Positions 15,623-58,540 of a stretch of 64,000 nt of DNA are shown here, in pieces (the stretch's first letter is position 1; each line of letters starts with the position of its first letter). The DNA lies in contig NW_020846470.1 in NCBI RefSeq assembly GCF_003704095.1, positions 73,725 through 137,724 of the forward strand, in the 5' to 3' direction. The notes beneath the pieces are model-generated. The model saw nothing but the letters and a program-made list of their open reading frames with translations. It did not search any database and was not told where the DNA came from. Origin of the DNA: Pocillopora damicornis (lineage: Eukaryota). The position numbers were made by a program, and so were the translations under genes.

Positions 15623-15743
15623 ATGCAGCGACGATTTATCATTCCCCTGATGATTTTGGTGTTAATCACGGAAGGCGAGGCATGGAGAAGAAGACGGAGG
15701 AGGCGATGGACACCACCCCCGCCTCAAAACTGCGTTGTCTCCG
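15623..15743 (+). CDS. Cadherin/EGF gene exon 1: signal peptide [20 protein letters not shown] followed by an R-rich/Pro stretch
   Basis: ATG at 15623. The hydrophobic core is typical of a signal peptide. Donor is TCC G|GTAAGT (phase 1). Confidence 0.7.
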
Positions 15744-18700: not shown

Positions 18701-21700
18701 TATTTTTAGAGCCTCTGTATGTGTCAGATGTTGTAATTTTAATGCAGCCAAAAGTTTTTTTTAATGTTATTAATTTTGTAGGCATATTATGCTTTAAACA
18801 AATAAGAAAGTTAAAATGAAATTTTTAGCGCTTCTCAATTCTGCTCTGCTAGTGGTTTTTCATCATTCAATCTTAATAATCTGTGATTATAATATTTGCT
18901 TGAGGGAGCCCATCTTTTTAAAAAGCCCTTTGCTTTCTCATGAGCCTCCTCACCATCTTTAGCCCAAGTCCTTTTATTTGGTAGCACTCTAATGTAACTT
19001 GACAATCAAATTTATGGCAAAGAAGAATGAAGCATGATCATAAAGCAAGGAAAGTAAAGAAAGTGTTTTCCTCATGCTATTGTTTTAAAGTTTTAATTCG
19101 TCATGAATTTCAATTTGTGGAATTTTTAAAGAAATAAGTTAAGATTTCTACTTTCAAATTTTCTGTTTGATTAGCAGCACTAGTGAACCTTTGCATCTTC
19201 CTCATACACTTTGATGTATTGCATTTTAGTATTACTGTAAATATACCCTGATTCAATTGTGGTAATATTTGTAATGCTCATTGTATCTGGAAGTGATGTA
19301 GAATATGGAACATATTACAAGTAGTACAGTGGACAGGCCCGAAGAAGCAGTCATTTTTTCAATTTTAGAGACTTATCAAGAGCTGCATTTTGTCAGCTGT
19401 CAAACAATGAAATTCAGTCATACACCTCACTCTCTCAGAGATTGTCTCTACAAGGGTTATATGATTTAATTAATGCTTGTGAAAAACTTTTCTAAAAGCA
19501 TGTTAATTAAAATGGTATGTGGCTTACAGTGCTCCTGTGATGGACCAGCATCTTCTATCATGAGTCCTTTAGCCCCTAAGAGTGGCAAGCTCCTAATTTC
19601 TCCCAACAATACCACCCCACTCTTGATTGTTAGACAAATTCTCCTTAGAAGTAACATACGAAATGTACAGAGAACACTATGGGGAAATTGCAAACTAAAG
19701 TTACATGTCCGGGGCAAAGGGCTTATTATCTGCAAAAGTTGCTTTGTGCTACTCAGGTTGTCAGTGATGAACTTTCTTGCAAACACTTAGAAAATGTAGC
19801 AGAATCTTCTCTCTTGATTCCCTAGCAAATGTTTTGTCATGAGACAATTCTCATTTTGTTAGGCATTTTCTAAGAAAGAAATGATTAAAACATCAATACA
19901 AGTGGTTGAAATTGAAGACGAATGAAATAAAATTAATTTTTTTAACAGGATGGAGCTCATGGAGCACCTGTTCAGAGCAGTGCCACATTGGAACGCAAAC
20001 AAGGACACGTACCGTCACAACTGCTCCTAGCTGGGGAGGCACATGTTATGATCATTTGTCTGAACAAAGATCATGTGGTATAATCAATGGAGGATGTGAT
20101 CATTATTGTAACAATGGGTTCTGCTCTTGTCAATCCGGCTACACAAAATCAGGTACAGACTCAAATTTTTGCCTTTGTTTTTCCCCAGCTTATTTAAATT
20201 GTGTCTTCATGCACTTGTGCATTAAGTGGACTTAATGCATTATAGTGAGAATTAGTAAGGCTTGTATTGTCTGCTGAAGTAGACTTCACAGTTAACAAAT
20301 TAAGGTGTTGTTAAGAGGATGTGATCCCCATTGAAAGAAGTCCTTGATCATTAAGTAAATTCTTATTGTCAGTACCTTACAGAAAATGTAGCAAACACAA
20401 AGTACCAGATGCAGAGAACAGTATGGAGAATATGCATACTCATGTCAGGGTGTGAAGGGCTAAGCACAAAGAAGTAAATGACAAAAATTTGTTGTTGATT
20501 CCTTAAACATACCTATGTTATTAGTTTTTACATTTTTTTTTCTTTTAAATGTTGATAGGTAGCAAATGTCATGACATTGATGAGTGTGCACCAAATAGTG
20601 GCAAGGGTCCATGCAGTCACATCTGTACAAACCATGCTGGCTGGTATAAATGCAAGTGCCCTTCTGGATATTATCTTACCAGTGATCACAAAACATGTCA
20701 TGCCTTTGATTGTAACAGCCCTGCCTCACTTTTCAATTCATGCCCACAAGATTCTTACAGTGACCACATCTCTTCAGTTTGTCACCAAGTTAACATTGAC
20801 TGTTTGCAAGGAACAACTTATAATGAACAATGTTCTTTAACCTGTTCTCAGAACTATGCACTTGCAAAGATTTTTACACAGCCAAACAAAAAATTTGGTG
20901 AAGATTATTCTAAAGTTGACTTCTCTTCAGTGACTTCCACTCTAACTTGCCAGAAAACGCAAAAAGGGCAGACCTCAAATGTCTGGGATGTACTGGATAG
21001 TGATATTAGCGATTACTATTGCAGACGTACAAATGATCCTCCTAGAGACTTACTGCTAAATGGGACTGTTCTTTTAGAACATGCACCTATAAACACCATT
21101 ATTGGAACTTTAAGTTCCCATGATGCACAGCCAGGACAGACTTTTATGTATACAGTTCAACAACCCAATGAGCTTCTTGTGGCTCAAGGAGATAAATTGA
21201 TAAACATATGGGACAATCCAGTTTTAAATGGGAATGTGTCTTTAAGCCAAGGCCATTATTTAGCAGTAAAAATAAGAGTGACAGATGATGGAATGCCTCC
21301 CATGTGGCTGGAGAAGACTTTTCAGATCACAATACAGAATGTGAATGATCCTCCCAAGCAAGTCACACTGTCAAATTCTGTTGTCTTTGAGAATGCAACT
21401 ATAGGAAAAGTGATAGGAGAGCTGACAGCAGTAGATGGAGATGACCCACCAAACACTCATCTCCATTCAAACTTTAAGTGGGAGTTAATTAACGATGCAA
21501 GCGGAAAATTTGGTATGACTGTGAATAAGATTATAGTTGCCCAGAATTTGTTACCAGGATTGAACAAGATAACTGTTAGATGTTCAGACTTTGGAAACCC
21601 AATAGAACAAACCACAGAAGATTTCATTATAAATGTGATAAATGTCAATGATGTCCCACAAGCTTTAATGCTGACAAGTTCCACTGTGCATGAAACAGCT

Positions 21701-24700
21701 CCTGTAAACACAACTGTGGGTCAACTTGTTGCGATTGACAAGGATGGTGATGACATCTCCTTTGACGTCAGCCAATCAGATGTAATGACATTGAATAAAT
21801 TTGACATAGCTAATGTCCAGTGTGCATATAATGGGCAAGGAACAGAGAAAGAGTGCAAAGTGAATGTCACAGTAAAAGCTCCTTTGAATTATGAGGAGAA
21901 ATCATGGTACAAGCTGAGCGTCAAAGCTAATGATTCTCAAACACAGGTGTTCAAGACTTTCAACATTGAAATTATTGATGATAATGAGGCTCCAACAGCT
22001 ATCAATCTGACAGGGTCACACACTGTGTTGGAAAATTCTGTCGCTGGGACAGTCATTGGACAGTTTGTGGTATGTCTTCCTTTGCTGTTGTTGTTGTTGT
22101 TTTTTTTTTTATAATTGGCTGTCATATTTTGCACTTTAACAACTGTGGAACATCAAACAGAGGATCTATATCTGCAAACAAAGTATAATGATGACTTGAT
22201 TGTAAGGTTTTATCTTGCTTTGGAGATGATATGACATTTTGCAGAAGTCAATTCCATGGATCATGGGCATTGCCCTTTTTCATACCCCATTTTACATGTA
22301 GAGCATAATCATAATCAGTTCTCAGTCTTATGATGTCCTTAACTTCTTGGTGCTCACAGCTTAGTTGCATTTGTCAAGTACCTTTAGAACAATTTTGTTT
22401 ATGTAGTAGTAAAGTGAATTTTACTTTGCAGTCATTTTTGAATAGATCATGAAATGCCATAGGTTAAGTATAGAGAAGGTGCGTGTAACAAGCACGGCTG
22501 TTGAATACTGACCAATTACATGGAAGCATTGTGCTGTAAAGGTTTCACATAACCAGTAAGCCTGATCAAGACTTAAATAGCAGTATACAGTCACAACCTT
22601 TCTATCTGCATAGAAGCCAAGATTTCAATTCTTGATGCAGATCAGTCTTAAATATTGATTTATAATGATTGTTTATTTGCTTTTCCTTAGGTCACTGACC
22701 CAGACAATGCCAAGTCACCATCACATCAGTATCACAAATGTTTATTTAGCGTCAGCCAGCCCATGGATGAAAGTTATTTCATTATTAGCACGCAACTTGT
22801 GTTGAAAGTGAAGGGAGCCCAACAGATTGATTATGAGAACATGAAAACTCTTTCATTTACTGTGATATGTACTGATACTGGGCATCCACCCAAGTCACTG
22901 TCAGCTAGCTTTGTTTTATCAGTGAAAGGTGAGTGGTGAATGGTTGTTCCACTTACCTTCTTTTCTTTCTGTGTTCTCTCCATTCATTTCCTTCTTCATC
23001 CCAACCTGTCTCTCTTTCATAGTTTTGCATCTATTTTTGTTCTTTGATTTGTATCTTTGTTTATGCCATTTTTTGTACAGTCAGTCATTTGCTTTCTTAT
23101 GTGCTTATTCACTTATTAGCCCCTCTGCCCCTCTTTATGTCTCTCCTTCCCACCCTCCATCCTGCTTCTCTTCCTTCCTCTTTCCCCACCTCCCGATTTT
23201 CTTCTGCCTTCTTGATTCTGTTTTTGCTTGGTTATGTGATTTCACCTTTCCATCCCTCCTACTTCCCATCCCTCCCTTCCCTACCATCAAACTCTCTTCT
23301 TCTCCTCCTCTCTTTCATTTCCTTCCTTCAGTTCCATCTTCTCTGTTTTTATGAGCCCATTCGGCAGTTTACCCACCTATCTACCACTTAACACTCATCC
23401 AAATGTATAGCCAACCATGTATCATGCATGTGATATTCTTCAGATGTCAATGAGGCTCCTGTTAACCTGACATTGTCTAGTACAAATGTGGATGAAAACT
23501 CTCCCTTGGGTACTCCAGTGGGTAGCCTTTCCTCAGAGGATCCAGACCAACCTGGAGGTGTCCACACCTACACCATCATGGGACCTGTTGGTGTACCATT
23601 TGCTATTGGAGGAGATAAGAACAGAGTGCTCCTCGTAAATGGTCCTTTGGATCATGAAACGAATCCCATTGTCTTGGTCATTATAAGGGCTACAGATGGT
23701 GGAGGACTTTTTGTAGAGAAAACCTTCAAGATAACCATTAATGGTAAGTTCTTTTTTAGGGAATGTTCGATTTTCAACCGAGAGTGTCACACGTTTTATT
23801 GTAAAAGATGGCTGACGAAAGATGGGTAAGCAAGCTTTTCCTGGGAAACCTTAAGTCTGTCTCTGCTCTCCATCTCTTTCTCTTTTCTCCCCACCCCCCC
23901 AACCCCTCCTCCTTTCAAGCCAAAGGGCCTGCACAAGCCCAAGCCAAAACAAACATAAATTTTGCCTCTAAGGTTTGTGAAACTACTCAGGGAAGGAAGT
24001 GTCCAAAGCTAAAATATTTTGAATATATTTATATTCATGGATTACTTTTGACATTTGACTATGATGATTTTGTTAACCCTTGCTTCTTACGACCTCATCA
24101 TTTTGAATCAAACACTTTCCAATCACTTTGTGCTCACATCAACAGATGTCAATGATCCACCCAGCAACCTTTCTCTTGAAACTCCATCAATGAAAGAGAA
24201 CAGCGCCGAAAGAGTGCTCATTAGTTCCATAATACTGACAGACCAAGATGGTGACTTTCCTACCTGTAGACTATTGGATGACGCTGGTGGGCGTGTCAGA
24301 GTTGTGGGCACAAATCTGGTTGCAGGACCTACTATGACAGATTACGAATCAGCTCAACTGTCATCCACTAAAGACTTCAGTATTAAATTGAATTGTTCTG
24401 ATGGTCATGGAATGTTCATAGCGAAAACGTTTACTATTAAAGTTATGGGTGAGTGCACAGGCTTGGTCATTATGGTATAACTTACTTTTTTTCTCTTTAG
24501 TATATTTGGTTTTATCCACTTGAGTTGATCGAGCTGTTGGAAGCTCAAAGCATAGATTTTGTCACAAGTTTAGGTTAGCCATATTCTCATCAAAATCCAT
24601 TTAGCATAGTAGATTATTATGCAGCACCTTTTCATCGTCCGCCTTTATTCCCGCACCGTTAACACTTAACTCCCACGAGTGACCAAGACAGAATTTCTCC

Positions 24701-27700
24701 GTCATTACATTGTATGGTTGTCGTGGTAGAGTAGCTTCCTTCTTTGCTAATATTTTTCACTTGTATTTTAATACTAGATGTGAATGAGGCCCCATCAGAT
24801 TTCACTTTGAGCGCCACCTCTGTATATGAGAATGAACCCGATACATTGGTTGGTAGAGTTACAGTAGATGACCCAGACATTGGTCAGCGGCATCGTTGTA
24901 CAGTGCACGACCGTGTCGTGAATGGAAATTTTGATTCTGGGAGGACAAGCAAGTTTTTCACTGTGGATGCTTCATTAAACCTCAAAACACTAAGTGGGCT
25001 GAATTTCGAAGCTCACCACAGTTTGGATATTTGGATTAACTGCAGTGACATTGTGGCCGACAGTCTATTTAGGACGCAGTTGTTTACTATTTTTGTCAAA
25101 GGTAAGCTAGCCGATCAACTCTTAACATGTTTGGACGTAAGGCAGGAAACTAAGGTCGAGGTTTGTTGGTAAAGTTCCTCAAAGTAAGAAAACCAATTGA
25201 TCAGGTTTTCTATAATGGACGACCTTTTTTCCACTGGCCTCTATTTTCTCTTTCAAGTTCTTGAGAAAATGGTTTTTCAGTTGTGGGACTGCCTTTCGGT
25301 GAAAATAACGGGAAACAAATTTGACCTGTTATTCCAGTGAAGGTTACCGTACTCTCTTCCAGTCCTTCAGCCCATGCAGGCGAGTCAGAGAGTGTGGGAA
25401 CGACGAACAGCAGTCGTGGTTGTCAGGGAAACGGTTTTCGCGCATGCTATTTTCACTTGTTTCCACCGTCCGAGAGCACGGCACAGGCCAAGTTTACCAA
25501 CGAGCCTCATAGATCTATCTATCAAAGAGGTTGACTTTGTGTGGTTTCCTTTATAAACTGTCGAAAACACTTCATGTATACTCACAAAAACAATTCTATT
25601 TTTTAATCCCGGTGATCTTCGATATATTCACTCTAAATTTTTGGGTCTATGCATATATTTGGATTTAATCCTTCTTCTTCTCTGCATAAACACCCCTCAT
25701 GAAGTTATTTATTCTGAAATCCTGTCAGCAGTCAGTTAAAAATTTTTCTTTTTTGGTATGATTTCTCTTCAGATGTGAATGAGGCCCCAACAGGACTGTG
25801 CAGTGCACCCATAATCATTAGTATGAAGACATCAATTGGTGCTGTGATTGCAATGCTACAGGGAGATGATCCTGATAACGAAATTGCCATCCAAAATGAC
25901 CCTTCAAACCAGAGTGTAATCATCAGGAATAAACAACAACTGACATACTCCTTGAGTCCTCAACAAAATTCTTGGCCGTTTGGAATAAAAACTGATAGTC
26001 TTTTCAAGAGTGCCGTGAGTATGATGTACAAATGATATCCTGTTATTACGATTTTACGGCATTCCTCCTCCCTTGATGTGGACACACCAGTTTATCTCTT
26101 TAATAAGCTCCGGCTGGATGGGCCACTTGGTTCGAAAAGGACCTCACCTTTTTCCTTAATAACAAGATAAATGAAAATAGTACTCAATTCTGATTGGTTA
26201 AGAAAAATGCAATTTTCAAGTGATTCACTGCAGAAGAGGGTTAACTCAGTGCAAAGAAGTAACAAACCAGACTGAATAACTCTACGGGCTCGAGCAATTT
26301 TGTTAGTCTTTGAAAAAGTTTACTTGTGCTTATTTATTCCAAATTGCACTCGAAATCATGTGATTACCTATGCCGACTACATGTACACGTTTACTCGTGC
26401 TTATTTTCGGTGGATCATGTACATTTCAAGGTCTCTCACTAGAGTTGACATCCGCCATTTGTGGTAGTTGTTAACGCCTTCCCATGTGTCCTCTCATTTC
26501 TTCTTTTTCCTTGACGATTGTCTTAATTTTTCAGGAGATATCACAAGCCCAAAATTTCACAATAGGCGTAGAAGTAAAGGATGATGGCATCATTATTTCA
26601 AGTTTCTCCCCCATGGGATACAAGTACATCAAGACCGCTCCTTTATCTGCTGTCTTGAATTGTACCATTGTTATTTCAGGTATGATGCAAATAAATTATC
26701 GTGAATGATTATCCCTCAGCATTTTGTCAAGTTTTCCAGATCGTGCTTGTCAACCCTTTGCACCCAAGCGTTTTAAAACGTATTCTCCGCACTGCTCCTT
26801 TTATACTTTCCATGGCACTGACAAGGAGAATTTGTTTGATAATCGGAAGCTTCTCAAATTGGTAATCATTTCCTTCATTCCCATAACTTTTTCATTTGAC
26901 ACAAGGGAAGAACTGTAAGGAGAAACTAGAAGCCAGACTCTCTTAGGGGTTAAAGGGTTATTATCAAAGATAAAATTTTTTATTGTTTACGTTGCATACC
27001 TTTTACTCGTTGTTGTATACTTTTTATTCGTATTTTTCTCAGAGTATCAGCCGACAGATGAAATTTTACTTCAACCTAGTGAAGTGTCCATCACAGCCAT
27101 CAGTGGTTCCTTGGTTGGCACCTTGACAACAATGACCAAGAATCCAGGGGAAACATTTGTGTATGAACTCGTAGATGAGGCACAATTACCTTTTAGTATA
27201 ATCGGAGACAGGCTAGTGGTCGCTAAGAAGGATGGTCTAGATTTTTACGTGTCAAGCGCAGAGGAAGCTTTGATTCCAATTGCAATCATCAGTAAAGGCA
27301 ACATGTCTGCGCCAGTCAGGAAATCCTTCTATGTGAGAATTATAGGTGAGATTATGAATATATATTTTTGGGAAACAGTTTTTTGTGTGCAACCAGCTGG
27401 ACTTTTGCTTATCAAGATTTTCAGAAATTCAATTAAAGAGGCTCAAAATGGATTTGTCGATTGAAATCAGATATTCTTTGATGGATCCTTGTTTCCACAC
27501 TTTAACTTTCTTTCCTTGGAATTGGTATTTAAACAATGTGCAATTATTTCTCAACAAGTTTTCATTATTTTGACACGAAAAGCTACCTTAGCAAACTAAA
27601 GCCTCCTAAACAGATCTTTAATTGAAGCTGTGCGTGTCTGCATTTTGAAAGCATGCGCTATGAACCCTATTTGCTGAATTTCTATCACCACATTACTATT

Positions 27701-30700
27701 TATCTCCTTGAAAGCTAAGAACAACCTGTAAATATGGTTCAGAGCCACTTAAAGTTTTTGATAGTTTAAGGTGGCCATTTGTGCCTATTTTAATAAAAAT
27801 TTTCAACTTTTTTTTTCCTTTTTACCTCGATTTTAGATGATAGACCTCATCCAGTGGACATTTGTTTGAATCCTCACACTGTTCATGAAAATCAACCATT
27901 GGGCACTACTGTGGGTCAGTTACATATCGAAGATTCATCATCACCGTTACTTTCTTGTGGTAAACAACGCTGCTGCAATGATTACAGCAGGAATGTTGAT
28001 TATGAATGTAAAGTGGGCACTCCTGAGAACAACTTGGTCGTTCCCCAGCTTCAGAGGAACGTGAGCGCATTGTTTAGACTCGATGATCGGAGTCGCCTTA
28101 TTACCAAGGTCCCATTGCAATACAGTGACTTCAAAGAGTCTAATGGAACTGTGCATGTTCACTTCAGCTGTTATCAAGTCAGTAAACCACTTCACTTCAT
28201 AGGGAAATCACTACAAGTTTTTATCACAGGTAAAGTTTGATATGTGAAATGTGTCTTGGGATACCACTCTGATTGTTGTGAATACATTTGAATTACCTAG
28301 TAAAAGCAAGACACACGATTTCGAGGGATGAAGTAAATTTACAATTAATGAAGATAGCTTAACTACACAGGCGCAATTCAACGCATATCCTGAAACTATC
28401 GGCTTTCTTCTTTCCTTATGTTTAGATTGTAACAGCAGTGGTGTCTGCCCAAACATCAAAGATTGTCCTTTATGTTACAACGGTGGAAGCTGTCTTGACG
28501 TGATTGACGGCTACAACTGCCAGTGCATGTCCGGTTACACAGGTGTCCATTGTGAGAAAAACATAGATGAATGCCAAAGGATCGAGTGTCAGGTGAGTGA
28601 AGCGACCTTCGACCAAATGTCCCTATAGTCAATCGCGCCTTTGTTTTGCGTATCTTACTAAGAGAACAAAGCTTTTCTCACGATTATGCGTTCAAAGCAG
28701 TATAAAAGTGAATCGAAATACAGCACTGATTACGTTAAAAGGGAATGAAAATAAATTTGCAAGCATAAACCTAAATTTAGAATCACAAGCAAAGACAAAA
28801 AGCAGTGATCGTTTCAATGAAAATGGCGGATTCGGTCCCTGGACACGCGCGCAGTGCATGAGGCTAAGCGAAGATCCTTCAAAGGAGTGATGTTACGTTT
28901 TTGCTCATCTGGACATATTGAACCTAAATTTTTTAATTCAACGTTAGTGATTCTAAATAATCTTTGCCATCTCATTCTCGTTCCCTTAATGATCATCTAT
29001 TCTTATGCGATATGACAGCGATATTAAGCGATATTACAGTAAGATAAACCTCTCCTGACACATAGCGTTTACAGACCATAGGGAAGTCTTGATATGATTT
29101 TCATAGATTCTCTTTCTTGTTTCTTTTTCCTCTCTTTAGAACGGAGGTACATGTCAGGATGGAATAGCATCGTTTACTTGCCAATGTGCAGTGGGATTTT
29201 CAGGGACATTATGTGAGCGGCAAGTATCTCTTTGTGGCGATTGTACGGGAGATACATTGTGCGTGACCTATATTTCAGCTTCCATCCGGTAAGTAATATA
29301 CAAATTTTGTATTTATAGCTTGCTTCTTAAGAAGAAAGCATCGGGTTGATTGACATTGAACCAAATGAAATGATTTGTATTGGTTCAAATATAGAGAAGA
29401 ATCTTTAAAGAATAATTAATTTTAAGGAATGTTTAAGGGTTTTCTTATTTTATATGAGTTTCTGAATCCCCTTTTCTTGCTTTTGGCAGGTGCTTAGGGA
29501 CACAGTACCAGATCCCAGTCCTTGTGAACGAATCGGAAATATCTTCTCCGAGAAAGATAGAACTGGAGAAAGAGATTGTAACCATATTGGAAGCGAACAG
29601 AAATGATGCCAACAAAGGTAAGAATGATCACATTAGAGTCAGCTTTAAGATTTTATGGAAATCAATGTCGTGCAGTTATTTGGGTTGGTCATGCAGAAAA
29701 CAGGCATATTGCATTACCACTCAAGGTACATAAACTTTAGGAACAGAAGCTGCGGGAGACTTAATGGCCTGGGCCCAGTTGTTCTAAGGTCGAGTAACCC
29801 CATGCACTGGATAAATATCTTTCCGGTGGATAGTGCAACATATTTTGTTAACACTTGTCGGCTGGATAGCGATTTATCCGTATGAAAGCGTCATGCATCC
29901 TTTATACCACTGGAATCAGTGAGTTGTTGTCCGCTGGGATCAAACGGTCAAAAGTTCAATCCCAGCCGGGTCCGACTGCGTTACGACTTTTGACTAAACA
30001 CTCGACTCACACAATGCCTCTCCCCACCCTCCCCAGCTAGAACTCAAAATTTGTAGCAGTAAACTGATAGGATTTACTTACGGTAAGGGTGGGGGAGGGG
30101 TAAGTAATACCCTTTGTGGCTTTAAGCTATGGAAACAGTAATAGATAATTGTGGGAGTAATGGGTGCTTGGGCACGCAAGACTTGACCTTATTTGACTGA
30201 GCTAGGTCGGACCTAACGGTGATTTATGCGACCTTCCATCCCCTAAATTACTCAAAATACCGTTACATAGCTCCCTCAAGCCAAATGTATCTGGGAGTCA
30301 ATGTACTCAGTCACCTTACTTGTGTCATATTTCAGTCTCCAACAGAAAACGACGAGCGCTTTCAAATTATTTCTACGTGGAGATTCTTCGAACAATATCT
30401 CTAGGTACTCAACGACAGAGCCTTTTGATCATCGCAGCGCTAGATGCAAGGAACGCATTTTCCCCTCTACCGGCCTCCGAAGCTTGCAGAATACTTGGCA
30501 ACAGTGTGCGGCAGTGCGTGGAAAGCTGTGACGTACTCCAACTAGCCAGGCTGCCCTGCCAAGGAGGTCTTAACACCAATATAGGAAACCCCTCTGTGGA
30601 CGTATCTGCCAGTAGCTTGGGGTCAGGCGGAATTGCTGGTATTGCTGTGGTGGTCATAATTCTCCTTATTGCTATCCTTTTTGGTGCTGTCTTCTACTAC

Positions 30701-33053
30701 AGAAGAAAATACAAGAAGGCGAAGGTAAACCGGTCTTAACCTTTTACTTGGAAGATTCGTCCTTATGCTTTTTTGTTCATTTGTTACGTGAATGTGGTCC
30801 TTATCAGATCTGGCCCCGGTTGTTCAAAGGTTAAATAACGCTCTCAACTGGATAAATCGCTATCCGATGGATAGCGCAGTACTTTTTCTTATCAGTTATC
30901 CTCTGGATAGTGATTTATCCGTTGGATAGCGTTATCCACTCTTTGAACTACTGGGCACAGGTTTCAGTGTCAATGTGTGAGTCACAGTTGACTTACATTA
31001 CACGTTAAAAATTGACAGCCCCGGCCGTGGCAGAGATTTTCTAGTGTTAGTGGCGCCGTACTTGTTGCTCTGTCGCATCTGATATCTTTGTTGCCTTTTC
31101 GATGTATCGCAATGGGTGCAAACCTGTTATTGGCTAGCTGTCTGTTACACTGTATTTAACCCATAGCAGATAAGAAACACTCCCCCAAGGAAATATGAGG
31201 TCGCGTGGCTTAATGGTTACAGTGTTGAGCTCAAGGGTTTGAGTCATGGGTCACGCCTTGTATATAGCCAGCTAGTTTACTCCCTGTCAGTTTGGATTTT
31301 TAATATTTTTAGGTTTAATAGAATCAAAATGAATCAGATCATTACTGCGCTATCAAGCTTTTTCCCTTTTTCGTTTCACAGAAAATTTTAAAATTTGTAA
31401 CCAACCAATCACAAACATCTTCTGGACGTATTCTCGTTTTAATTTGACAGAACGAGCATGACAGCGTCCGTTTCCAGTCAGGCACGGAAGACTTGGACTT
31501 CTCCGACCCAGTTTTTGGCGACAATAGAAATGCGCTGACGTCAGGACCATCGAGAGAGGAATGGGCTGAGAAGTTAAGGAAAGAACCCGATGGATCGGTA
31601 CGGAACAATTTGGATCCCACTACTGTTGTCAAACGTAACGATATCCAGGTTAGATTTTGATGAATTTATGATTAATGAAACTGTCTGAAACACATGGCGT
31701 AATAATCTGTTATTCGATTATTTCTAAGTAGTCTTCGGGTATTTTGTCTTCAAGTGATGCAATTGATAGTGTTTAGAACCATTTTCAATTGAGTGTGGAA
31801 AGTGATCCGGGATCGCATCGATTTTGCGTTACTTCGCTCTGTGATTGGTCAGGAAAACTCGTGCTACCGTCTCAACCAATCAGCTGCAAAACGAGAACCA
31901 ATTACGACTTGGTCATTAGCGTTTTCCCGCTCCTCAAGTTGTAGCTTGTTTATTTGTTTGTTTTTTTTTCAAGTTGTCAGAGTCCTTTTTTTTTTAATAC
32001 TTTCCTTCGCCTTAATCGGCCGTACGTTTTGTTGTTCTCACTTAAAAATAAGCTTCTGAACTAAATCATACCAAGTTGAGTTGAATTAAGGATTAGAGCT
32101 GTGCGTTTGAAATCCATGAGTTGTCGGTGAAAAGTCATAGCTAGGCGAGTACCTGACACGTTTTTCATTCATTTCAGACCAATAAAGTCCTACTGGAATT
32201 TTTATGTGTTTAATCTTGCCTTGCTTTTCTTCAGGTGACAAACAATCCTCTCTACAGTAGTCCTGGCAATGCTGCCGGAGCCGAGGCATCCAATCCAATT
32301 TACACCAAGGTGGTTGATACACCCATAGAAGATGAGATAGCGGCGGCCAAAAAGAAGAATAAAGAAGACCACACTTACGCGGAACCTAAGGATGTTACCC
32401 TCGGGGGAACTTCAAAACACCAGTATGAAAAGCCCCCTTCGAGGCGGGTATCTCACACCAAGAACACCTACGCGGATCCCAAAGATGTAACCCCTAAGGG
32501 TTCAGTGAACCCCCGCTATGAGATGTCCCCTCCGCCGCGAGTGTCGCACACTAACAACACCTACATGGAACTTCAAGATATTTCCCCTATGGGGGCGTCG
32601 AATCCGTGTTATGCTAAGTCCCCACCGGTTCGAAAATCTTTTGTGAACGACATAGATAATCACCAAGAAGGCGATGGCGCGCTTGGAAAAGTTGCAAACG
32701 CTTACTTGAAAGGTGCAAGGTCTAAAGTGCGAGCATCGAACGCATCTCAGACAAAGAAGCTTAGACGTCAAAGAACTGACGAGAAAGAAGCAACTGATGA
32801 AGAAAGTGCCGTGCTTAAAAAGAACGAGGTACCACCGTCTTTTGAAAACCCGTTTTATAGTGATAATCCGATAAGGGATCAAGACAATTTCAACGAGGAT
32901 CCAACATACGCGACTATTCCTGCATTGCAAGACAGCCGTCCGTGTTTGCCGCCAAGAACTCAACAAAGATCCTACGATACTCCAGCGGAGGAGATAGTGG
33001 TTCAAGAGGACGACGTGTACGAGAAAGTAAACTTTGGAGACACGGAGGCGTAA
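15623..33053 (+). CDS. Single-pass transmembrane cadherin-repeat / EGF / TSP1 protein with NPxY-rich cytoplasmic tail, gene span, 17 coding exons, CDS 5934 nt (about 1977 aa)
   Basis: All 17 exons join with consistent phases across canonical GT-AG introns (hand-verified). The domain order is signal peptide, TSP1, EGF, cbEGF, Cys-rich, about eight cadherin repeats, two EGF, RKRR site, TM helix, cytoplasmic tail. Confidence 0.75.
16640..16829. repeat. Long foldback (two 67-bp inverted arms, about 62/67 identical, 56-bp spacer with its own nested 9-bp inverted repeat) in intron 1 of the cadherin/EGF gene
   Basis: Left arm: aagaaatgtaaaatggtttccgtgtttacatagcctgatgtaaacacgcgggaagttgggagaacac. Right arm: gtgttctcccaacctcccgcatgtttacatcaggctatgtaaagatggaaaccattttacatttctt. 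The spacer contains ggaaaccac...gtggtttcc. A third partial unit (aaaccattttacatgagtaaacacgg) lies just upstream, at 16585-16612. Confidence 0.7.
19949..20152 (+). CDS. Cadherin/EGF gene exon 2: thrombospondin type-1 repeat plus EGF-like module
   Basis: Acceptor is tttttaacag|. The sequence (G)[42 protein letters not shown] matches the TSP1 signature WSxWSxCSxxCG...RxR...C. It is followed by [26 protein letters not shown]. Donor is TCA G|GTACAG. Confidence 0.75.
20559..22069 (+). CDS. Cadherin/EGF gene exon 3 (1511 nt): Ca-binding EGF, Cys-rich (sushi-like?) region, cadherin repeats 1 to 4 start
   Basis: The cbEGF module is [43 protein letters not shown]. Cadherin linker and Ca-binding motifs follow: [37 protein letters not shown] and LNYEEK. 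Donor is TTT GTG|GTATGT. Confidence 0.8.
22691..22928 (+). CDS. Cadherin/EGF gene exon 4 (cadherin repeat)
   Basis: The sequence ...GQFV|[10 protein letters not shown]...[24 protein letters not shown] carries the cadherin signatures VTDPD, IDYE and TDTG. Acceptor is ccttag|, donor AAA G|GTGAGT. Confidence 0.75.
22930..23400. repeat. Pyrimidine (CT)-rich low-complexity tract in intron 4 of the cadherin/EGF gene
   Basis: Long runs of tctc/ttcc/cctc. The track's spurious Ser/Leu/Pro/Phe-rich ORFs (22929..23354, 23044..23391) derive from this tract. Confidence 0.6.
23444..23743 (+). CDS. Cadherin/EGF gene exon 5 (cadherin repeat)
   Basis: Begins with the linker motif DVNEAP and contains EDPDQP, LDHETN and ATDGGG. 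Donor is AAT G|GTAAGT. Confidence 0.75.
24146..24448 (+). CDS. Cadherin/EGF gene exon 6 (cadherin repeat)
   Basis: Begins [11 protein letters not shown] and contains [15 protein letters not shown] and CSDGHG. Donor is ATG G|GTGAGT. Confidence 0.75.
24778..25101 (+). CDS. Cadherin/EGF gene exon 7 (cadherin repeat)
   Basis: Begins [11 protein letters not shown] and contains [14 protein letters not shown] and CSD. Donor is AAA G|GTAAGC. Confidence 0.75.
25773..26014 (+). CDS. Cadherin/EGF gene exon 8 (divergent cadherin-like repeat)
   Basis: Begins DVNEAPTGL and contains QGDDPDNE. Donor is GCC|GTGAGT (phase 0). Confidence 0.65.
26040..26420. repeat. Dispersed repeat family D (intron of the cadherin/EGF gene). 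Second copy at 63190-63720
   Basis: Shared blocks are ctgattg.ttaag..aaatgca.ttttcaagtgattcactgcagaagagggttaa.tcagtgcaaagaagtaac...cagactgaa.aa.tc and ttgttagtctttgaaaaa.tta.t..tgcttatttattccaaattgcactc.aaatc.tgtgattacc.at.c.aac. Confidence 0.55.
26535..26679 (+). CDS. Cadherin/EGF gene exon 9
   Basis: Acceptor is tttttcag|GAG ATA, donor TCA G|GTATGA. Open frame [26 protein letters not shown]... The phase is consistent with both neighbours. Confidence 0.6.
27043..27345 (+). CDS. Cadherin/EGF gene exon 10 (degenerate cadherin-like repeat)
   Basis: Acceptor is ttttctcag|, donor ATA G|GTGAGA. Open frame [28 protein letters not shown]... Confidence 0.6.
27837..28229 (+). CDS. Cadherin/EGF gene exon 11 (membrane-proximal Cys-containing region)
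   Basis: Acceptor is gattttag|, donor ACA G|GTAAAG. Open frame [37 protein letters not shown]... Confidence 0.6.
28426..28592 (+). CDS. Cadherin/EGF gene exon 12 (EGF-like domain)
   Basis: [56 protein letters not shown] shows the classic EGF Cys spacing. Donor is CAG|GTGAGT. Confidence 0.75.
29140..29288 (+). CDS. Cadherin/EGF gene exon 13 (EGF-like domain)
   Basis: [41 protein letters not shown]. Donor is ATC CG|GTAAGT (phase 2). Confidence 0.7.
29490..29617 (+). CDS. Cadherin/EGF gene exon 14
   Basis: Acceptor is ttttggcag|, donor AAA G|GTAAGA. Open frame (R)[42 protein letters not shown]. Confidence 0.6.
29755..29885. repeat. Foldback/MITE-like repeat family E (ggataaatcgctatcc core), intron 14 of the cadherin/EGF gene. 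Second copy at 30815-30960 in intron 15
   Basis: Both copies share ggcc.gg.cc.gttgtt.aaaggt..a.taac.c....actggataaat..ct.tcc.gtggatagtgc and internally carry the core in both orientations (ggataaatcgctatcc / ggatagcgatttatcc). Confidence 0.55.
30336..30724 (+). CDS. Cadherin/EGF gene exon 15: juxtamembrane region with RKRR furin-like site, transmembrane helix, basic stop-transfer
   Basis: ...[15 protein letters not shown]... then the TM helix [23 protein letters not shown] followed by RRKYKKAK. Donor is AAG|GTAAAC. Confidence 0.75.
31451..31648 (+). CDS. Cadherin/EGF gene exon 16 (cytoplasmic, acidic)
   Basis: Acceptor is aatttgacag|, donor CAG|GTTAGA. An open frame of 198 nt with no stop reads [25 protein letters not shown]... 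It is phase 0 on both sides, consistent with its neighbours. Confidence 0.55.
31840..31935. repeat. Dispersed repeat family G. Second copy at 47215-47290
   Basis: Shared block caaccaatcag.t.caaaac.agaacca.t..cg.cttggtc..t...t.ttt.cc.gc.c.caag. Confidence 0.4.
32235..33053 (+). CDS. Cadherin/EGF gene exon 17: cytoplasmic tail with repeated NPxY-type tyrosine motifs, stop TAA at 33051
   Basis: Acceptor is cttttcttcag|GTG ACA. The tail carries NPLY, NPIY, NPRY, NPCY, NPFY and PTYATIP. Repeated blocks (Y[AM][ED][PL].D[VI][TS]...) recur. An AATAAA lies about 265 nt downstream, at 33317-33322. Confidence 0.75.
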   Translation: MTNNPLYSSPGNAAGAEASNPIYTKVVDTPIEDEIAAAKKKNKEDHTYAEPKDVTLGGTSKHQYEKPPSRRVSHTKNTYADPKDVTPKGSVNPRYEMSPPPRVSHTNNTYMELQDISPMGASNPCYAKSPPVRKSFVNDIDNHQEGDGALGKVANAYLKGARSKVRASNASQTKKLRRQRTDEKEATDEESAVLKKNEVPPSFENPFYSDNPIRDQDNFNEDPTYATIPALQDSRPCLPPRTQQRSYDTPAEEIVVQEDDVYEKVNFGDTEA

Positions 33054-56717: not shown

Positions 56718-58540
56718 TCACCATAAAATTTTAACCTTAGGTGTCACTAAAAAGTTCCTGGTTGATGATTGTAAATTCCTATAAGGCTCGTAAGTTTGCA
56801 ACAAATCATGAATATAGCTAGGACCTAAATCATTTAGAGGTTTAAAAGTCAACAGCAGGAAAACAACCCTCTGCTTTAAGGGAAGCCAGTGTAGTTCTCT
56901 CAGTAAAGGAGTAATGCAGTCATATTTAGATCCACATATTGCACAGTTCTGAACTAACTGAAGTCTACAAATTAAGAATTTTGGAAGTCCATATAACAGA
57001 GAGTTATAGTTGTCCAATCTACACATTATGGAGGCATGTACTAAAATTTTGGTGCTTTCAGCTGACAAGAACTTCCTAATATGAGAAATATTACAATTGT
57101 TAAAAAAATGTGGATTTACAAATGGCAGCCACTCATTGTTCCATGTTCAAATTATTGTCAAAAATAACACCTATGTTGCTGCCAGTGTGAGAGGGATTCA
57201 TAACTTAACCATCAATCGCTGTGAAAGAGAAGAGCTGAGAGACTGGACGATATTGCGATCTAATGACCAAAAGCTCTGTCTTGTCACCATTAAGTTTAAG
57301 TTTGTTCAAAGACATTCATGTCACAATATCATGTAAACATACTTCAATTCTTGGCACAATTACAGACGAATCAGAGTTGAACGAAAAATAAATATGAGAG
57401 TCCTCTGTGTAGAAATAATATTTCATATTATGCCTTCTTGTAACTTCACCAAGAGGAGACGTATACAAAAGATATAAAATAGAGCCAAGAACAGAACCTT
57501 GAGGAACACCATACAATAGATCAGACCTGCTGGAACTAGTTCCATTCAGGCAGACAAATTGATTCCAGCCAGCCATGTAGGATTTGAACCACATGAGGAC
57601 CCTTCCCTTGATACCAAATCGCATCTTCAATCTGTGGAGTAGTACACTGTGGTCAACAGTGTCAAAAGCTGCAGATAAATCAAGCAGTACCCAAATTACA
57701 GTGCCACCATTGTCCACAGCTTGCAATATGTCATCCTGTACTTTCAAAAGGGTGGTCTCAATGCTATGCAGTTTCTTATAGGCAGATTGAAGTTTTTCAC
57801 AGAGATTGTTCTTATCAATATACTACATAAGTTAGGCCACAACCGTCTTCTCAATTAATTTGGAAATAAATTGAAGATTAGACAATGGATGAAAGTTCTT
57901 CAGGATCTAAGCTAGACTCCTTTTAAAGTGGAGTTATCATAGCACACTTAAGTGTATTAGGCATAAAAGCTCCCTCTAAAGAACAATTCACTATGTCAGT
58001 AATTACTAGCAACAAAGTTTATTAAGACAGAAGCTGGCAGAGGATCCAGAGCACAGGTTTTAACTTTGATTGACCTAATGAGATTAGCAATGTATTCAGT
58101 AGAGACACGTTGGAAGACCACAGGCTCACAGGGACACAGGGTAGCGGAATTCTCTGGGGGTAGATTTGAAGTATTAGGACTGCAAGCAGGTAAACTTTCC
58201 CTTATAAGTGGTATCTTGTTGGTAAAGAAGGAGTTGAACTGTTCAGAGTGAGAGGTTTTCTGTATAATGAAGTATTAATCACTTGAAACAACTTTTGCTG
58301 GTTTCCATGATTGGCCTCAATTAATGATGAGCAGTAGGCCTCTTTCACATTTCAGGTCAAGTCATTTACAACACAACACTGATCTGTGTACAACTGATGC
58401 TTGGCATTAGTCCTATCAGTATGCCATTGTCCTTCCAGCCTTCTCCTCTTTCTCTTAGCAGCCTTAATTTCATCTGTAAACCAAGGAGCATGGTGGCAAA
58501 AGGTAATGGATCGACGGACAATGGGAGCATGATGATCCAT
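56718..58540 (-). mobile_element. Degraded non-LTR (LINE, CR1/L2-like) retrotransposon fragment with frameshifted ORF2
   Basis: Broken minus-strand ORFs carry RT motif A (WVLLDLSAAFDTVDHSVLL), motif B (GVPQGSVLGSILYLLYT), a post-endonuclease segment (PWFTDEIKAAKRKRRRLE) and a typical ORF2 C-terminal tail (LHWLPLKQRVVFLLLTFKPLNDLGPSYIHDLL). The ORFs sit in different frames, which indicates decay. Confidence 0.7.

What the first reader, a model, noticed from the sequence alone, without database searches (positions are those of the whole stretch)
15623..33053. Unusual receptor architecture: TSP1, EGF, cbEGF, about eight cadherin repeats, two EGF, a TM helix and an NPxY-rich tail in one protein
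The reconstructed 1977-aa product combines domains that are not a standard classical cadherin, protocadherin, FAT/Dachsous or CELSR layout. These are an N-terminal thrombospondin type-1 repeat, calcium-binding EGF modules, a cadherin-repeat array with clear DxNDxP linkers, membrane-proximal EGF modules and a single transmembrane helix. Exon phases are consistent across all 17 exons, so this is not an artefact of ORF stitching. It may be a lineage-specific adhesion or engulfment-type receptor.
Basis: partly seen in the sequence, partly recalled or inferred. Interest (0 to 1): 0.75.

Follow-up and report, generated by a model that had tools for sequence, protein, structure and literature searches.

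The report
Cnidarian TSP1–EGF-capped cadherin receptor gene
This is a real 17-exon coral (Pocillopora) gene for a 1977-residue membrane receptor that puts a thrombospondin/EGF cap on about ten cadherin repeats and ends in a tyrosine-motif-rich tail. The same layout is conserved across corals, sea anemones, soft corals and jellyfish, but databases list it only as "uncharacterized" or wrongly as "protocadherin Fat 4".

Summary
Rebuilding the gene on the + strand gave 17 GT-AG exons from 15623 to 33053, in consistent phase, encoding exactly 1977 aa. RefSeq XP_058952437.1 (Pocillopora verrucosa, "uncharacterized protein LOC131779869", 1976 aa) is 98.6% identical over the full length.

EGF and cadherin repeats are not stitched together, because exon 3 alone encodes the cbEGF, a Cys-rich module and EC1 to part of EC4. 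Spliced contigs and orthologues together cover all 16 junctions.

The layout is: signal peptide, poly-Arg, TSP1, EGF, cbEGF, an unassigned roughly 110-aa Cys-rich module, 10 cadherin-like repeats (7 with canonical Ca2+ linkers, the 3 nearest the membrane degenerate), EGF, cbEGF, a juxtamembrane module with a conserved furin site (RKRR), a TM helix, and a 346-aa tail. The tail has 5 NPxY motifs (0.09 expected), and all 13 tyrosines of its last exon are invariant in three corals.

Colinear homologues exist in Nematostella, Xenia and the scyphozoan Sanderia, plus a medusozoan-like mRNA contig, so this is a Cnidaria-wide family rather than a coral novelty. It fails the tests for classical cadherin, protocadherin, FAT and CELSR. 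I found no publication describing it.

The function (a Ca2+-dependent recognition or adhesion receptor, furin-processed, signalling through PTB/SH2 adaptors) is inferred, not shown. Interest is moderate.

The parts
15623..15743 (+). Exon 1 (aa 1-41): start codon, signal peptide [22 protein letters not shown]7-W poly-arginine, PPPP, first residues of TSP1. Phase-1 donor CCG|gtaagt.
   Evidence: Conserved in Desmophyllum P0018/P0024, Nematostella, Xenia and Sanderia. Conserved in locus L001.
19949..20152 (+). Exon 2 (aa 41-109): thrombospondin type-1 repeat (WSSWSTCS...RTRTV...) plus first EGF-like module (six Cys).
   Evidence: Pfam TSP1_spondin 43.7 bits and TSP_1 29.1 bits on this ORF. Junctions 1 and 2 are spanned by P0018, P0280, P0286 and the L006 mRNA.
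20559..22069 (+). Exon 3 (aa 109-612), one open frame: cbEGF (aa 114-155), unassigned Cys-rich module ending [10 protein letters not shown] (aa ~156-270), EC1, EC2, EC3 and the first part of EC4.
   Evidence: Cys-rich module conserved in 7 species, with no Pfam or PDB match.
22691..22928 (+). Exon 4 (aa 613-691): rest of EC4.
   Evidence: Junctions spanned by spliced JGI contigs P0012 and P0309.
23444..23743 (+). Exon 5 (aa 692-791): EC5, a phase 1-1 exon starting DVNEAP.
   Evidence: Pfam Cadherin 37-38 bits..
24146..24448 (+). Exon 6 (aa 792-892): EC6, a phase 1-1 exon starting DVNDPP.
   Evidence: Own EC profile 1.5e-6. Ca2+ motifs ENS, DQDGD, DYE and SDGHG read from the sequence.
24778..25101 (+). 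Exon 7 (aa 893-1000): EC7, a phase 1-1 exon starting DVNEAP.
   Evidence: Pfam Cadherin E=1.2e-5..
25773..26679 (+). Exons 8 (25773-26014) and 9 (26535-26679), aa 1001-1129: EC8, a long, divergent cadherin-like repeat. The linker to EC9 has lost the DxNDxxP motif (SEYQPTD).
   Evidence: partial profile match only. Colinear in P0075, P0309 and P0280.
27043..27345 (+). Exon 10 (aa 1130-1230): EC9, a degenerate cadherin-like repeat without Ca2+-binding motifs.
   Evidence: Own EC profile 8.8e-4. No Pfam hit.
27837..28229 (+). Exon 11 (aa 1231-1361): EC10, a degenerate Cys-containing cadherin-like repeat.
   Evidence: Own EC profile 3.7e-8. Faint Cadherin_FAT4_N match.
28426..29288 (+). Exons 12 (28426-28592) and 13 (29140-29288), aa 1362-1467: EGF, then cbEGF (NIDEC...), then a short 4-Cys stretch.
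   Evidence: Pfam hEGF 50.9 bits and EGF 28.9 bits. Splice sites. Desmophyllum P0074/P0075 are colinear.
29490..29617 (+). Exon 14 (aa 1467-1510): N-terminal half of the juxtamembrane module (QYQIPVLV...[13 protein letters not shown]).
   Evidence: Found through Desmophyllum P0075. Family alignment A3.
30336..30724 (+). Exon 15 (aa 1510-1639): furin-type site RKRR (30344-30355), conserved YFYVEIL strand, C-terminal half of the juxtamembrane module, TM helix (aa 1608-1631, about 30629-30700), stop-transfer RRKYKKAK.
   Evidence: An R-x-[KR]-R site at the same place in Desmophyllum, Nematostella (RSRR) and Xenia (RKRR, REKR).
31451..31648 (+). Exon 16 (aa 1640-1705): cytoplasmic segment [11 protein letters not shown]...VVKRNDIQ.
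   Evidence: Coding sequence and both splice sites conserved in L004 8945-9148. Present in XP_058952437.1.
32235..33053 (+). Exon 17 (aa 1706-1977 plus stop): cytoplasmic tail. NPxY motifs at 32244-32255, 32292-32303, 32508-32519, 32601-32612 and 32847-32858. Three 31-aa repeats (aa 1749-1841), each with TY(A/M)xP-type and (N/K)(P/H)xY tyrosines. Also YATI and a C-terminal ...NFGDTEA.
   Evidence: Tail ORFs P0128 (74% identity) and P0129 (65% identity) in other corals. All 13 Tyr invariant.

Best explanation
The locus is one protein-coding gene of a Pocillopora coral. It encodes a type-I membrane protein of the cadherin superfamily and belongs to a conserved, so far undescribed, Cnidaria-wide family.

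Shown:
- The 17-exon structure.
- The domain order: SP, poly-Arg, TSP1, EGF, cbEGF, Cys-rich module, EC1-10, EGF, cbEGF, juxtamembrane module with an R-x-K/R-R site, TM, Tyr-motif tail.
- Conservation of that order in Anthozoa and Scyphozoa.

Inferred mechanism:
- EC1-EC7 carry the full Ca2+-binding linker motifs and should form a rigid Ca2+-dependent rod. The three degenerate membrane-proximal repeats give a more flexible stalk.
- EC1 is capped by TSP1/EGF/Cys-rich modules, so classical strand-swap homophilic binding by a free EC1 N-terminus is impossible. The tip most likely binds a heterophilic ligand (matrix, glycan or another surface protein).
- The conserved dibasic site about 90 residues outside the membrane is probably cut by a furin-type convertase in the secretory pathway. 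That would give a two-chain receptor, or allow shedding.
- The tail has no catenin-binding region. It instead presents invariant NPxY, YxxP and YxxPhi tyrosines, which probably recruit PTB- and SH2-domain adaptors and the endocytic machinery.

In short, it is a recognition/adhesion receptor that signals or internalises through phosphotyrosine/PTB adaptors rather than through catenins.
For: Gene model: canonical splice sites and phases; 98.6% identity over the full length to RefSeq XP_058952437.1; spliced JGI contigs P0012 and P0309 span junctions 3-11; Desmophyllum models span junctions 1-2 and 6-14; exons 9-17 are colinear in another coral.

Domains: Pfam and my own EC profile.

Family: colinear alignment to Nematostella XP_048577480.1 over query aa 3-1586 (38% identity), to Xenia XP_046847643.1 (query aa 9-1386 and 1444-1660) and to Sanderia (query aa 36-891). 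Pfam gives the same TSP1/EGF/cadherin content. An uninterrupted ORF of at least 1316 aa with the same N-terminal order lies on an 8-kb JGI contig.

Conserved short features: poly-Arg after the signal peptide, the furin-type site, and at least two NPxY motifs in all full-length members.

Tail under constraint: 5 NPxY against 0.09 expected, and 13 of 13 Tyr invariant across three corals while overall identity is 65-74%.

No Cadherin_C or any other Pfam family in the tail.
Against: - No expression, localisation, cleavage or binding data were available, so every functional step is inference from motifs.
- EC8-EC10 are only weakly cadherin-like.
- Both AlphaFold models (juxtamembrane module; Cys-rich module plus EC1) had mean pLDDT of about 47 and could not be used.
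- Neither module matches Pfam or PDB sequences.
- Short motifs such as NPxY, YxxP and RxKR can be conserved for reasons other than those proposed.
- Presence outside Cnidaria was not excluded. The one exhaustive search listed only the best 150 hits, mostly giant cadherins.
Confidence: 0.6

Rival explanations
1. It is an engulfment or microbe/symbiont-recognition receptor. The TSP1 repeat and EGF cap would bind particles such as apoptotic cells, bacteria or dinoflagellate symbionts. The NPxY motifs would recruit a CED-6/GULP-type PTB adaptor, and the YxxP motifs Crk-type SH2 adaptors, to drive phagocytosis, as in CED-1/Draper/MEGF10, LRP1 or BAI1.
For: A TSP1 repeat sits at the extreme tip. There are five NPxY plus several YxxP/YxxL-type tyrosines, all invariant. 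NPxY is retained in Nematostella and Xenia tails. TSR-domain proteins have been implicated experimentally in symbiont uptake in sea anemones (PMC5446238). That paper does not mention any cadherin-containing TSR protein.
Against: The family also occurs in Nematostella and in Sanderia, which from my own knowledge are non-symbiotic, so it cannot be symbiosis-specific. There is only one TSP1 repeat, and no EMI or atypical-EGF array as in CED-1/MEGF10. No expression or functional data exist. NPxY also serves plain endocytosis and integrin-type adhesion.
Confidence: 0.15
2. It is a Notch-like proteolytic-switch receptor. Furin (S1-like) cleavage would create a heterodimer held together by a SEA-like or HD-like juxtamembrane domain. 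Pulling on the long cadherin rod would expose a second site, followed by intramembrane cleavage and release of the tail.
For: A conserved R-x-K/R-R site is followed a few residues later by a conserved hydrophobic strand ([15 protein letters not shown]). This is reminiscent of human NOTCH1 RRRR-...-IVYLEI, and hhalign aligns exactly these 22 columns. The family alignment shows an alternating strand/helix-like hydrophobic pattern. EGF modules lie immediately before the module, as in Notch.
Against: The profile comparison with the NOTCH1 HD is not significant (probability 3%). There are no NOD/NODP, SEA or LNR Pfam hits. The profile finds nothing in the PDB. The AlphaFold model has low confidence. 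The tail has no nuclear or transcription-factor features that I could detect.
Confidence: 0.1
3. It is simply a divergent FAT-type or protocadherin planar-polarity/adhesion cadherin, as the automatic RefSeq names of the Nematostella and Xenia homologues ("protocadherin Fat 4") imply. It would act homophilically or with a Dachsous-like partner.
For: The best-scoring database hits outside the family are giant FAT-like cadherins. ECs followed by EGF modules and a single TM resemble the C-terminal part of FAT. The RefSeq names are listed.
Against: It has 10 ECs rather than about 34, no laminin-G domain, an N-terminal TSP1/EGF/Cys-rich cap that FAT lacks, and no similarity in the tail. Similarity to FAT-like proteins is confined to generic EC repeats at 31-38% identity in many short stretches, whereas true family members align colinearly in one stretch.
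Confidence: 0.1

Closest known systems
RefSeq orthologue group: Pocillopora verrucosa LOC131779869 (XP_058952437.1); Nematostella vectensis XP_048577480.1 / A7SV36; Xenia sp. XP_046847643.1; Desmophyllum pertusum OS493_033483-033486 and OS493_018416-018418
   Same: Same gene (Pocillopora, 98.6% identity) or colinear homologues. They share SP, poly-Arg, TSP1, EGF, the Cys-rich module, ECs, the furin site, a TM and an NPxY tail.
   Different: These are only automatic predictions, named "uncharacterized", "protocadherin Fat 4(-like)" or "cadherin-23-like". Desmophyllum models are fragmented into several genes. Nematostella lacks the N-terminal cbEGF. The Xenia copies lack clear membrane-proximal EGF pairs.
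FAT / FAT-like atypical cadherins (the source of the automatic name)
   Same: Cadherin repeats followed by EGF modules, a single TM and a non-catenin tail. From my own knowledge, FAT1 is furin-processed.
   Different: FAT has about 32-34 ECs and laminin-G domains and has no TSP1/EGF cap. Here there are 10 ECs, no LamG and an unrelated tail.
Hedgling (sponge/cnidarian cadherin with an N-terminal hedgehog-like domain)
   Same: The same design principle: a non-cadherin recognition module capping an EC array, then EGF, a TM and a non-catenin tail. It is also restricted to non-bilaterians (my own knowledge; mentioned in PMC12549020).
   Different: Hedgling's cap is a Hedge/VWA pair, not TSP1/EGF/cbEGF. 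No such Pfam hits occur here.
Classical type-III (non-chordate) cadherin, e.g. the coral skeletal-matrix cadherin (PMC4890752)
   Same: ECs followed by EGF-type modules and one TM. It is present in the same coral genomes.
   Different: Type-III cadherins have about 31 ECs, LamG domains and a catenin-binding cytoplasmic domain. None of these is present here.
CED-1 / Draper / MEGF10 and LRP1 (NPxY-bearing engulfment/endocytic receptors); BAI1 (TSR-bearing engulfment receptor)
   Same: Single-pass receptors with EGF modules and NPxY plus other Tyr motifs that bind PTB adaptors. In BAI1, TSRs act as the particle-binding tip (my own knowledge).
   Different: None of these contains cadherin repeats. 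This protein has no EMI domain, atypical EGF array, LDL-A repeats or GPCR moiety. The resemblance is at motif level only and is untested.
Notch negative regulatory region / SEA-like juxtamembrane modules
   Same: EGF modules, then a roughly 130-aa juxtamembrane module with a furin site followed by a VY-x-E-I/L strand, then the TM.
   Different: No significant sequence or profile similarity (probability 3%). No LNR repeats. The fold is unknown.

Membership tests
Cadherin superfamily | Tandem extracellular cadherin (EC) repeats with Ca2+-binding linker motifs (xEx, DxD, DxE, DxNDxxP) | tested here: met
   Pfam Cadherin 130 bits in 4 stretches. Single-repeat scans pass the cut-off for EC3-5. My own profile detects 9-10 units. 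D(V/D)N(E/D)xP linkers lie between EC3/4 and EC7/8, with NVNDxP variants at EC1/2 and EC2/3.
Classical cadherins (types I-IV) | Cytoplasmic catenin-binding domain (Pfam Cadherin_C: p120 and beta-catenin sites) | tested here: not met
   No Pfam family of any kind in the 346-aa tail, even at E<=10. No Cadherin_C hit in the whole-protein scan.
Classical cadherins (types I-IV) | Free EC1 N-terminus (after prodomain removal) for strand-swap dimerisation | tested here: not met
   EC1 starts at about aa 270 and is preceded by TSP1, two EGFs and a Cys-rich module, with no dibasic site between them.
Clustered / non-clustered protocadherins | 6-7 ECs encoded largely by one big exon, no other ectodomain modules | tested here: not met
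   10 EC units spread over exons 3-11, plus TSP1 and four EGF modules.
FAT / Dachsous atypical cadherins | Very long EC arrays (about 27-34); for FAT, also laminin-G plus EGF before the TM | tested here: not met
   10 ECs and no Laminin_G hit. FAT-like proteins match only as scattered EC-to-EC stretches.
CELSR / Flamingo | HormR/GAIN domain and seven-pass membrane region after the EC/EGF/LamG modules | tested here: not met
   Only one hydrophobic span after the signal peptide (aa 1608-1631). No 7tm_2 or GPS hits.
Cnidarian TSP1-EGF-cadherin family (LOC131779869 orthologue group; unnamed) | Colinear similarity over the whole ectodomain, including SP, poly-Arg, TSP1, EGF and the Cys-rich module ending (Y/F)CRRxNDPP | tested here: met
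   98.6% identity to XP_058952437.1. Single-stretch alignments to Nematostella, Xenia and Sanderia proteins. Invariant columns in alignments A4 and A6.
Cnidarian TSP1-EGF-cadherin family (LOC131779869 orthologue group; unnamed) | Juxtamembrane R-x-K/R-R site followed by a VY-x-E-(I/L)-L strand, one TM, and a tail with at least two NPxY | tested here: met
Notch-type HD / SEA-like juxtamembrane domain | Detectable sequence, profile or fold similarity to the NOTCH HD (NOD/NODP) or to SEA | tested here: inconclusive
   hhalign against the validated human NOTCH1 HD gave probability 3% over 22 columns around the furin site only. No Pfam or PDB hit. AlphaFold pLDDT of 47 was too low for a fold search.
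CED-1/Draper/MEGF10-type engulfment receptors | EMI domain plus an array of atypical EGF repeats; NPxY and YxxL in the tail binding CED-6/GULP | tested here: not met
   No EMI and only four EGF modules. NPxY and YxxL (YMEL) motifs are present. Adaptor binding cannot be tested with these tools.

The most novel reading that the evidence does not exclude
A Cnidaria-wide cadherin-related receptor family, so far undescribed. Its TSR/EGF-capped tip would recognise non-self or altered-self particles (microbes, algal symbionts, dying cells) or matrix. After furin processing, it would transmit this through a dense array of invariant NPxY/YxxP tyrosines to PTB/SH2 adaptors. That would make it an ancient cadherin-based phagocytic or mechanosensitive signalling receptor with no bilaterian counterpart.
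Probability: 0.15. Interest if true: 0.7.

Novelty: new variant of a known kind. Interest (0 to 1): 0.42.

Why it matters
Cadherins are central to how animals became multicellular, and non-bilaterians are where unusual cadherin architectures (hedgling, lefftyrin, coherin) have been informative.

This gene defines another such architecture. It has a TSR/EGF-capped ten-repeat cadherin, a conserved convertase site and a catenin-independent tail packed with tyrosine motifs. It is conserved from jellyfish to reef corals, yet public annotation hides it under "uncharacterized" or the misleading name "protocadherin Fat 4".

Recognising it as a distinct family would:
- prevent wrong inferences about Fat/planar-polarity signalling in cnidarian omics studies;
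- provide a concrete candidate surface receptor for coral cell-matrix, cell-cell or cell-microbe recognition;
- give a tractable test case (Nematostella has an orthologue) for how cadherin ectodomains were coupled to PTB/SH2 signalling.

It is not a new principle of biology. Domain shuffling of this kind is expected in early metazoan adhesion genes.

Tried and rejected
1. First exon-16 choice (31478-31624, weak donor, giving 1960 aa). Rejected after comparison with L004 showed conserved coding sequence and splice sites for 31451-31648.

2. A direct join of exon 13 to 30206. Rejected because Desmophyllum P0075 revealed a missing exon (29490-29617) and the true acceptor at 30336.

3. Protein search with the C-terminal third. 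It was swamped by generic EGF proteins (Notch, fibropellin, neurocan), and only the two Desmophyllum hits were useful.

4. AlphaFold2 of the juxtamembrane module (3-sequence alignment) and of the Cys-rich module plus EC1 (24 sequences). Mean pLDDT was 46.7 and 47.6, so I ran no fold searches because the matches would be meaningless.

5. Sushi/CCP idea for the Cys-rich module, based on a C...C-x-x-N-Y-x-L...C...W...C pattern. No Pfam hit in five species at E<=10 and no PDB profile hit, so it is left unassigned.

6. Notch-HD or SEA homology of the juxtamembrane module. phmmer and a family profile against the PDB found nothing. hhalign against the NOTCH1 HD gave probability 3%.

7. Second gene copy or tandem paralogue in the window. 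None found.

8. DNA-level tandem repeats in the tail. None by TRF; the three 31-aa repeats are visible only at protein level.

9. Literature. Searches by accession and by keyword found no description. Hulpiau & van Roy 2011 and Nichols et al. 2012 are not held in the library. The coral skeletal cadherin is a type-III classical cadherin, not this gene. The Nematostella matrisome paper lists several "Cnidaria specific" "Protocadherin Fat 4-like" receptors, but I could not map them to the orthologue without their sequences.

Full report
**What the window is.** The window has about 38% G+C and split genes. The best protein matches are to stony corals. The reconstructed protein is 98.6% identical over its whole length to RefSeq XP_058952437.1, [quoted passage not shown]. 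The window is therefore Pocillopora genomic DNA, from P. verrucosa or a close relative.

**Checking the observation.** I listed all open segments on the + strand and all AG/GT sites. I then assembled the exons, using orthologous proteins as guides. The final model has 17 exons:
- 15623-15743
- 19949-20152
- 20559-22069
- 22691-22928
- 23444-23743
- 24146-24448
- 24778-25101
- 25773-26014
- 26535-26679
- 27043-27345
- 27837-28229
- 28426-28592
- 29140-29288
- 29490-29617
- 30336-30724
- 31451-31648
- 32235-33053

Two of my early choices were wrong and were corrected by comparative data. An exon at 29490-29617 was missing until Desmophyllum P0075 showed the intervening sequence. Exon 16 had to be extended to 31451-31648, because both its coding sequence and its splice sites are conserved in another coral (L004).

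**Is it one gene?** Yes, on four lines of evidence.
- Exon 3 is a single 1511-nt open frame encoding the cbEGF, a Cys-rich module, and EC1-EC3 with the start of EC4. The EGF-cadherin junction therefore needs no splicing at all.
- Junctions 1-2 are joined in the Desmophyllum models P0018 and P0024. Junctions 3-11 are joined in two spliced JGI contigs from another coral (P0012, 691 aa; P0309, 1111 aa). Junctions 6-14 are joined in Desmophyllum P0075. All 16 are joined in the RefSeq model.
- An 8-kb JGI contig (L006) carries an uninterrupted ORF of at least 1316 aa, beginning with signal peptide, poly-Arg, TSP1, EGF, cbEGF and Cys-rich module and running into cadherin repeats. This is a spliced mRNA of a more distant, medusozoan-like homologue.
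- The flanks are syntenic in other corals. A HELB/PIF1-like helicase lies head-to-head upstream, and conserved blocks lie downstream from about 36 kb. There is no second copy in the window.

**Anatomy (protein coordinates).**
- aa 1-20: signal peptide.
- aa 21-29: W-R7-W, followed by PPPP.
- aa 37-84: TSP1 repeat (Pfam TSP_1 above its cut-off).
- aa 83-112: a six-Cys EGF-like module.
- aa 114-155: cbEGF (DIDEC...).
- aa ~156-270: a module with about 10 Cys ending in the invariant YYCRRxNDPP. It has no Pfam or PDB match in any of five to seven species.
- aa ~270-1361: ten cadherin-like units. EC1-EC7 carry the xEx, DxD, DxE, DxG and D/NxN(D/E)xP motifs. EC8 is long and split over two exons. The EC8/9 linker (SEYQPTD) and EC9 have lost the Ca2+ ligands. 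EC10 is Cys-rich and only loosely cadherin-like.
- aa 1362-1405: EGF.
- aa 1406-1444: cbEGF (NIDEC; C-x-D-x4-F-x-C).
- Next: a 4-Cys stretch, then a juxtamembrane module of about 130 aa.
- aa 1513-1516: RKRR, the only R-x-K/R-R in the protein apart from the poly-Arg.
- aa 1608-1631: TM helix, then RRKYKK.
- Last 346 aa: cytoplasmic tail.

Exons 5, 6 and 7 are each one EC unit in phase 1-1, starting at D-V-N-(E/D)-x-P. This is the signature of exon duplication.

**The tail.** It matches no Pfam family. It has five NPxY motifs against 0.09 expected from its composition; 0 of 20000 shuffles reach five. It contains three tandem 31-aa repeats, each with two tyrosines (TY-A/M-x-P/L ... N/K-P/H-x-Y). 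It also has a YATI motif and the conserved C-terminus NFGDTEA.

Against the tail ORFs of two other corals (74% and 65% identity), all 13 tyrosines of the last exon are invariant. Three of the five NPxY motifs are strictly retained. The other species has an extra NPVY in exon 16 where Pocillopora has DPVF.

**The family.** The exhaustive search with the first 1195 residues was dominated by giant FAT-like cadherins that match in many short EC-to-EC stretches. Five proteins instead matched colinearly in one or two stretches starting at the N-terminus. Cluster look-up identified them:
- Nematostella vectensis XP_048577480/81 ("protocadherin Fat 4 isoform X1/X2"; older entry A7SV36).
- Xenia sp. 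XP_046847643 ("protocadherin Fat 4-like"), XP_046847458 ("cadherin-23-like"), XP_046847457 ("fat-like cadherin-related tumor suppressor homolog") and XP_046847460 ("uncharacterized protein LOC124441075, partial").
- A gene of the scyphozoan Sanderia malayensis.
- One unnamed ENA fragment (P0230, 494 aa).

The Nematostella protein aligns to the Pocillopora one from residue 3 to 1586 (38% identity), and Xenia from 9 to 1386 and 1444 to 1660. Pfam finds the same TSP1/EGF/cadherin content.

All full-length members share four short features:
- poly-Arg after the signal peptide;
- the (Y/F)CRRxNDPP junction;
- a dibasic convertase site 75-90 residues before the TM, followed by x-V-Y-x-E-(I/L)-L;
- at least two NPxY motifs in the tail.

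Differences: Nematostella lacks the cbEGF at the N-terminus, and the Xenia paralogues lack a clear membrane-proximal EGF pair.

The family is therefore present in Hexacorallia, Octocorallia and Scyphozoa.

**How it probably works.** The architecture and its conservation are shown. The rest is inferred.
- Seven canonical Ca2+ linkers predict a stiff Ca2+-dependent rod on a more flexible three-repeat stalk.
- A TSP1/EGF/Cys-rich cap on EC1 rules out the classical free-N-terminus strand swap. It argues for heterophilic recognition at the tip.
- A conserved furin-type site in a hydrophilic loop predicts two-chain maturation or shedding.
- There is no catenin-binding domain, but there are invariant NPxY, YxxP and YxxPhi tyrosines. 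These predict coupling to PTB/SH2 adaptors and endocytosis.

I rate this general mechanism at about 0.6. The more specific engulfment reading (about 0.15) and Notch-like switch reading (about 0.1) are compatible but unsupported. The local resemblance of RKRR...YFYVEIL to NOTCH1 RRRR...IVYLEI is not statistically significant (hhalign probability 3%, with the NOTCH1 sequence validated). Both AlphaFold models were too poor (pLDDT about 47) to search with.

**Comparison with known families.** It belongs to the cadherin superfamily. It fails the defining features of:
- classical cadherins (no Cadherin_C, capped EC1);
- protocadherins (10 ECs over many exons, plus extra modules);
- FAT/Dachsous (repeat number, no LamG);
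- CELSR (one TM).

In design it is closest to hedgling, another non-bilaterian cadherin with a non-cadherin cap.

**Literature.** Full-text searches by accession and by keyword found no description of a TSP1-cadherin protein in cnidarians. The anthozoan TSR-repertoire paper never mentions cadherin. The coral skeletal-matrix cadherin is a type-III classical cadherin. The Nematostella matrisome study lists several "Cnidaria specific" "Protocadherin Fat 4-like" receptors enriched in primary polyps, one of which may be the orthologue, but I could not map the identifiers. Two key cadherin-evolution papers are not in the library, so a prior mention cannot be excluded.

**Verdict.** Its main interpretation holds: an unusual, non-standard cadherin-superfamily receptor that is not an artefact. 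The corrections are:
- ten rather than eight repeats;
- additional conserved modules (poly-Arg, Cys-rich module, furin site, tail repeats);
- a family that is Cnidaria-wide rather than coral-specific;
- a gene already predicted, but unnamed or mis-named, in RefSeq.

It is a new variant within a known superfamily. It is moderately interesting for cadherin evolution and as a candidate coral surface receptor, and its function is still open.

Noticed in passing
window 15683-15709 (aa 21-29); same position in P0018, P0280, P0282, P0171 and L006: A run of 4-8 arginines flanked by Trp, followed by a Pro-rich stretch, sits directly after the predicted signal-peptide cleavage site. It is conserved from scyphozoans to corals. 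In Nematostella it reads WRRRRGD, which creates an RGD. It could be a convertase site, a glycosaminoglycan-binding patch or a retention signal; none of these was tested.
   Followed up: partly
window 29650-29915 (intron 14) and 30790-30965 (intron 15); also L001 668-827: A dispersed repeat with a conserved pseudo-ORF (WIN-x-(F/Y)P-x-DSA...LDSDLS) occurs in two introns of the gene and in the unrelated upstream region of another coral's locus. It has no Pfam match. It is probably a coral SINE/MITE-like element.
   Followed up: partly
window 22929-23400 (intron 4): A roughly 470-bp pyrimidine-rich (CT-rich), low-complexity stretch gives long spurious Ser/Phe/Leu/Pro ORFs in two frames. It coincides with the strongest negative GC and AT skew in the window.
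   Followed up: no
window 8638-14930, minus strand: Exons of a superfamily-1 helicase (AAA_30, AAA_19 and PIF1-like hits; the other coral's locus shows WHD_HELB) lie head-to-head with the cadherin gene. About 690 bp separate the two start codons, suggesting a bidirectional promoter. The arrangement is syntenic in L001.
   Followed up: partly
window 3108-4043, minus strand: An intronless 311-aa rhodopsin-family GPCR ORF (Pfam 7tm_1, 62 bits).
   Followed up: partly
window 57316-57747, minus strand: A reverse-transcriptase fragment (Pfam RVT_1, 46 bits), presumably a decayed non-LTR retrotransposon.
   Followed up: no
P0018/P0074 (contig of 540 kb) and P0024/P0075 (contig of 2.2 Mb) of Desmophyllum pertusum; Xenia XP_046847457, XP_046847458 and XP_046847460: Desmophyllum has two copies of the gene on different contigs (paralogues or haplotigs). 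Each is broken into several annotated "hypothetical proteins", and one has a frameshifted C-terminus. Xenia has at least two divergent paralogues with consecutive accession numbers on one scaffold, suggesting tandem duplication.
   Followed up: partly
window exons 12-13 (aa 1380-1425): Both membrane-proximal EGF modules carry the C2-x4-(S/T)-C3 pattern (CYNGGSC, CQNGGTC). From my own knowledge, this is the O-fucosylation consensus used on Notch-type EGF repeats. The second also has the Asp/Asn beta-hydroxylation consensus.
   Followed up: no
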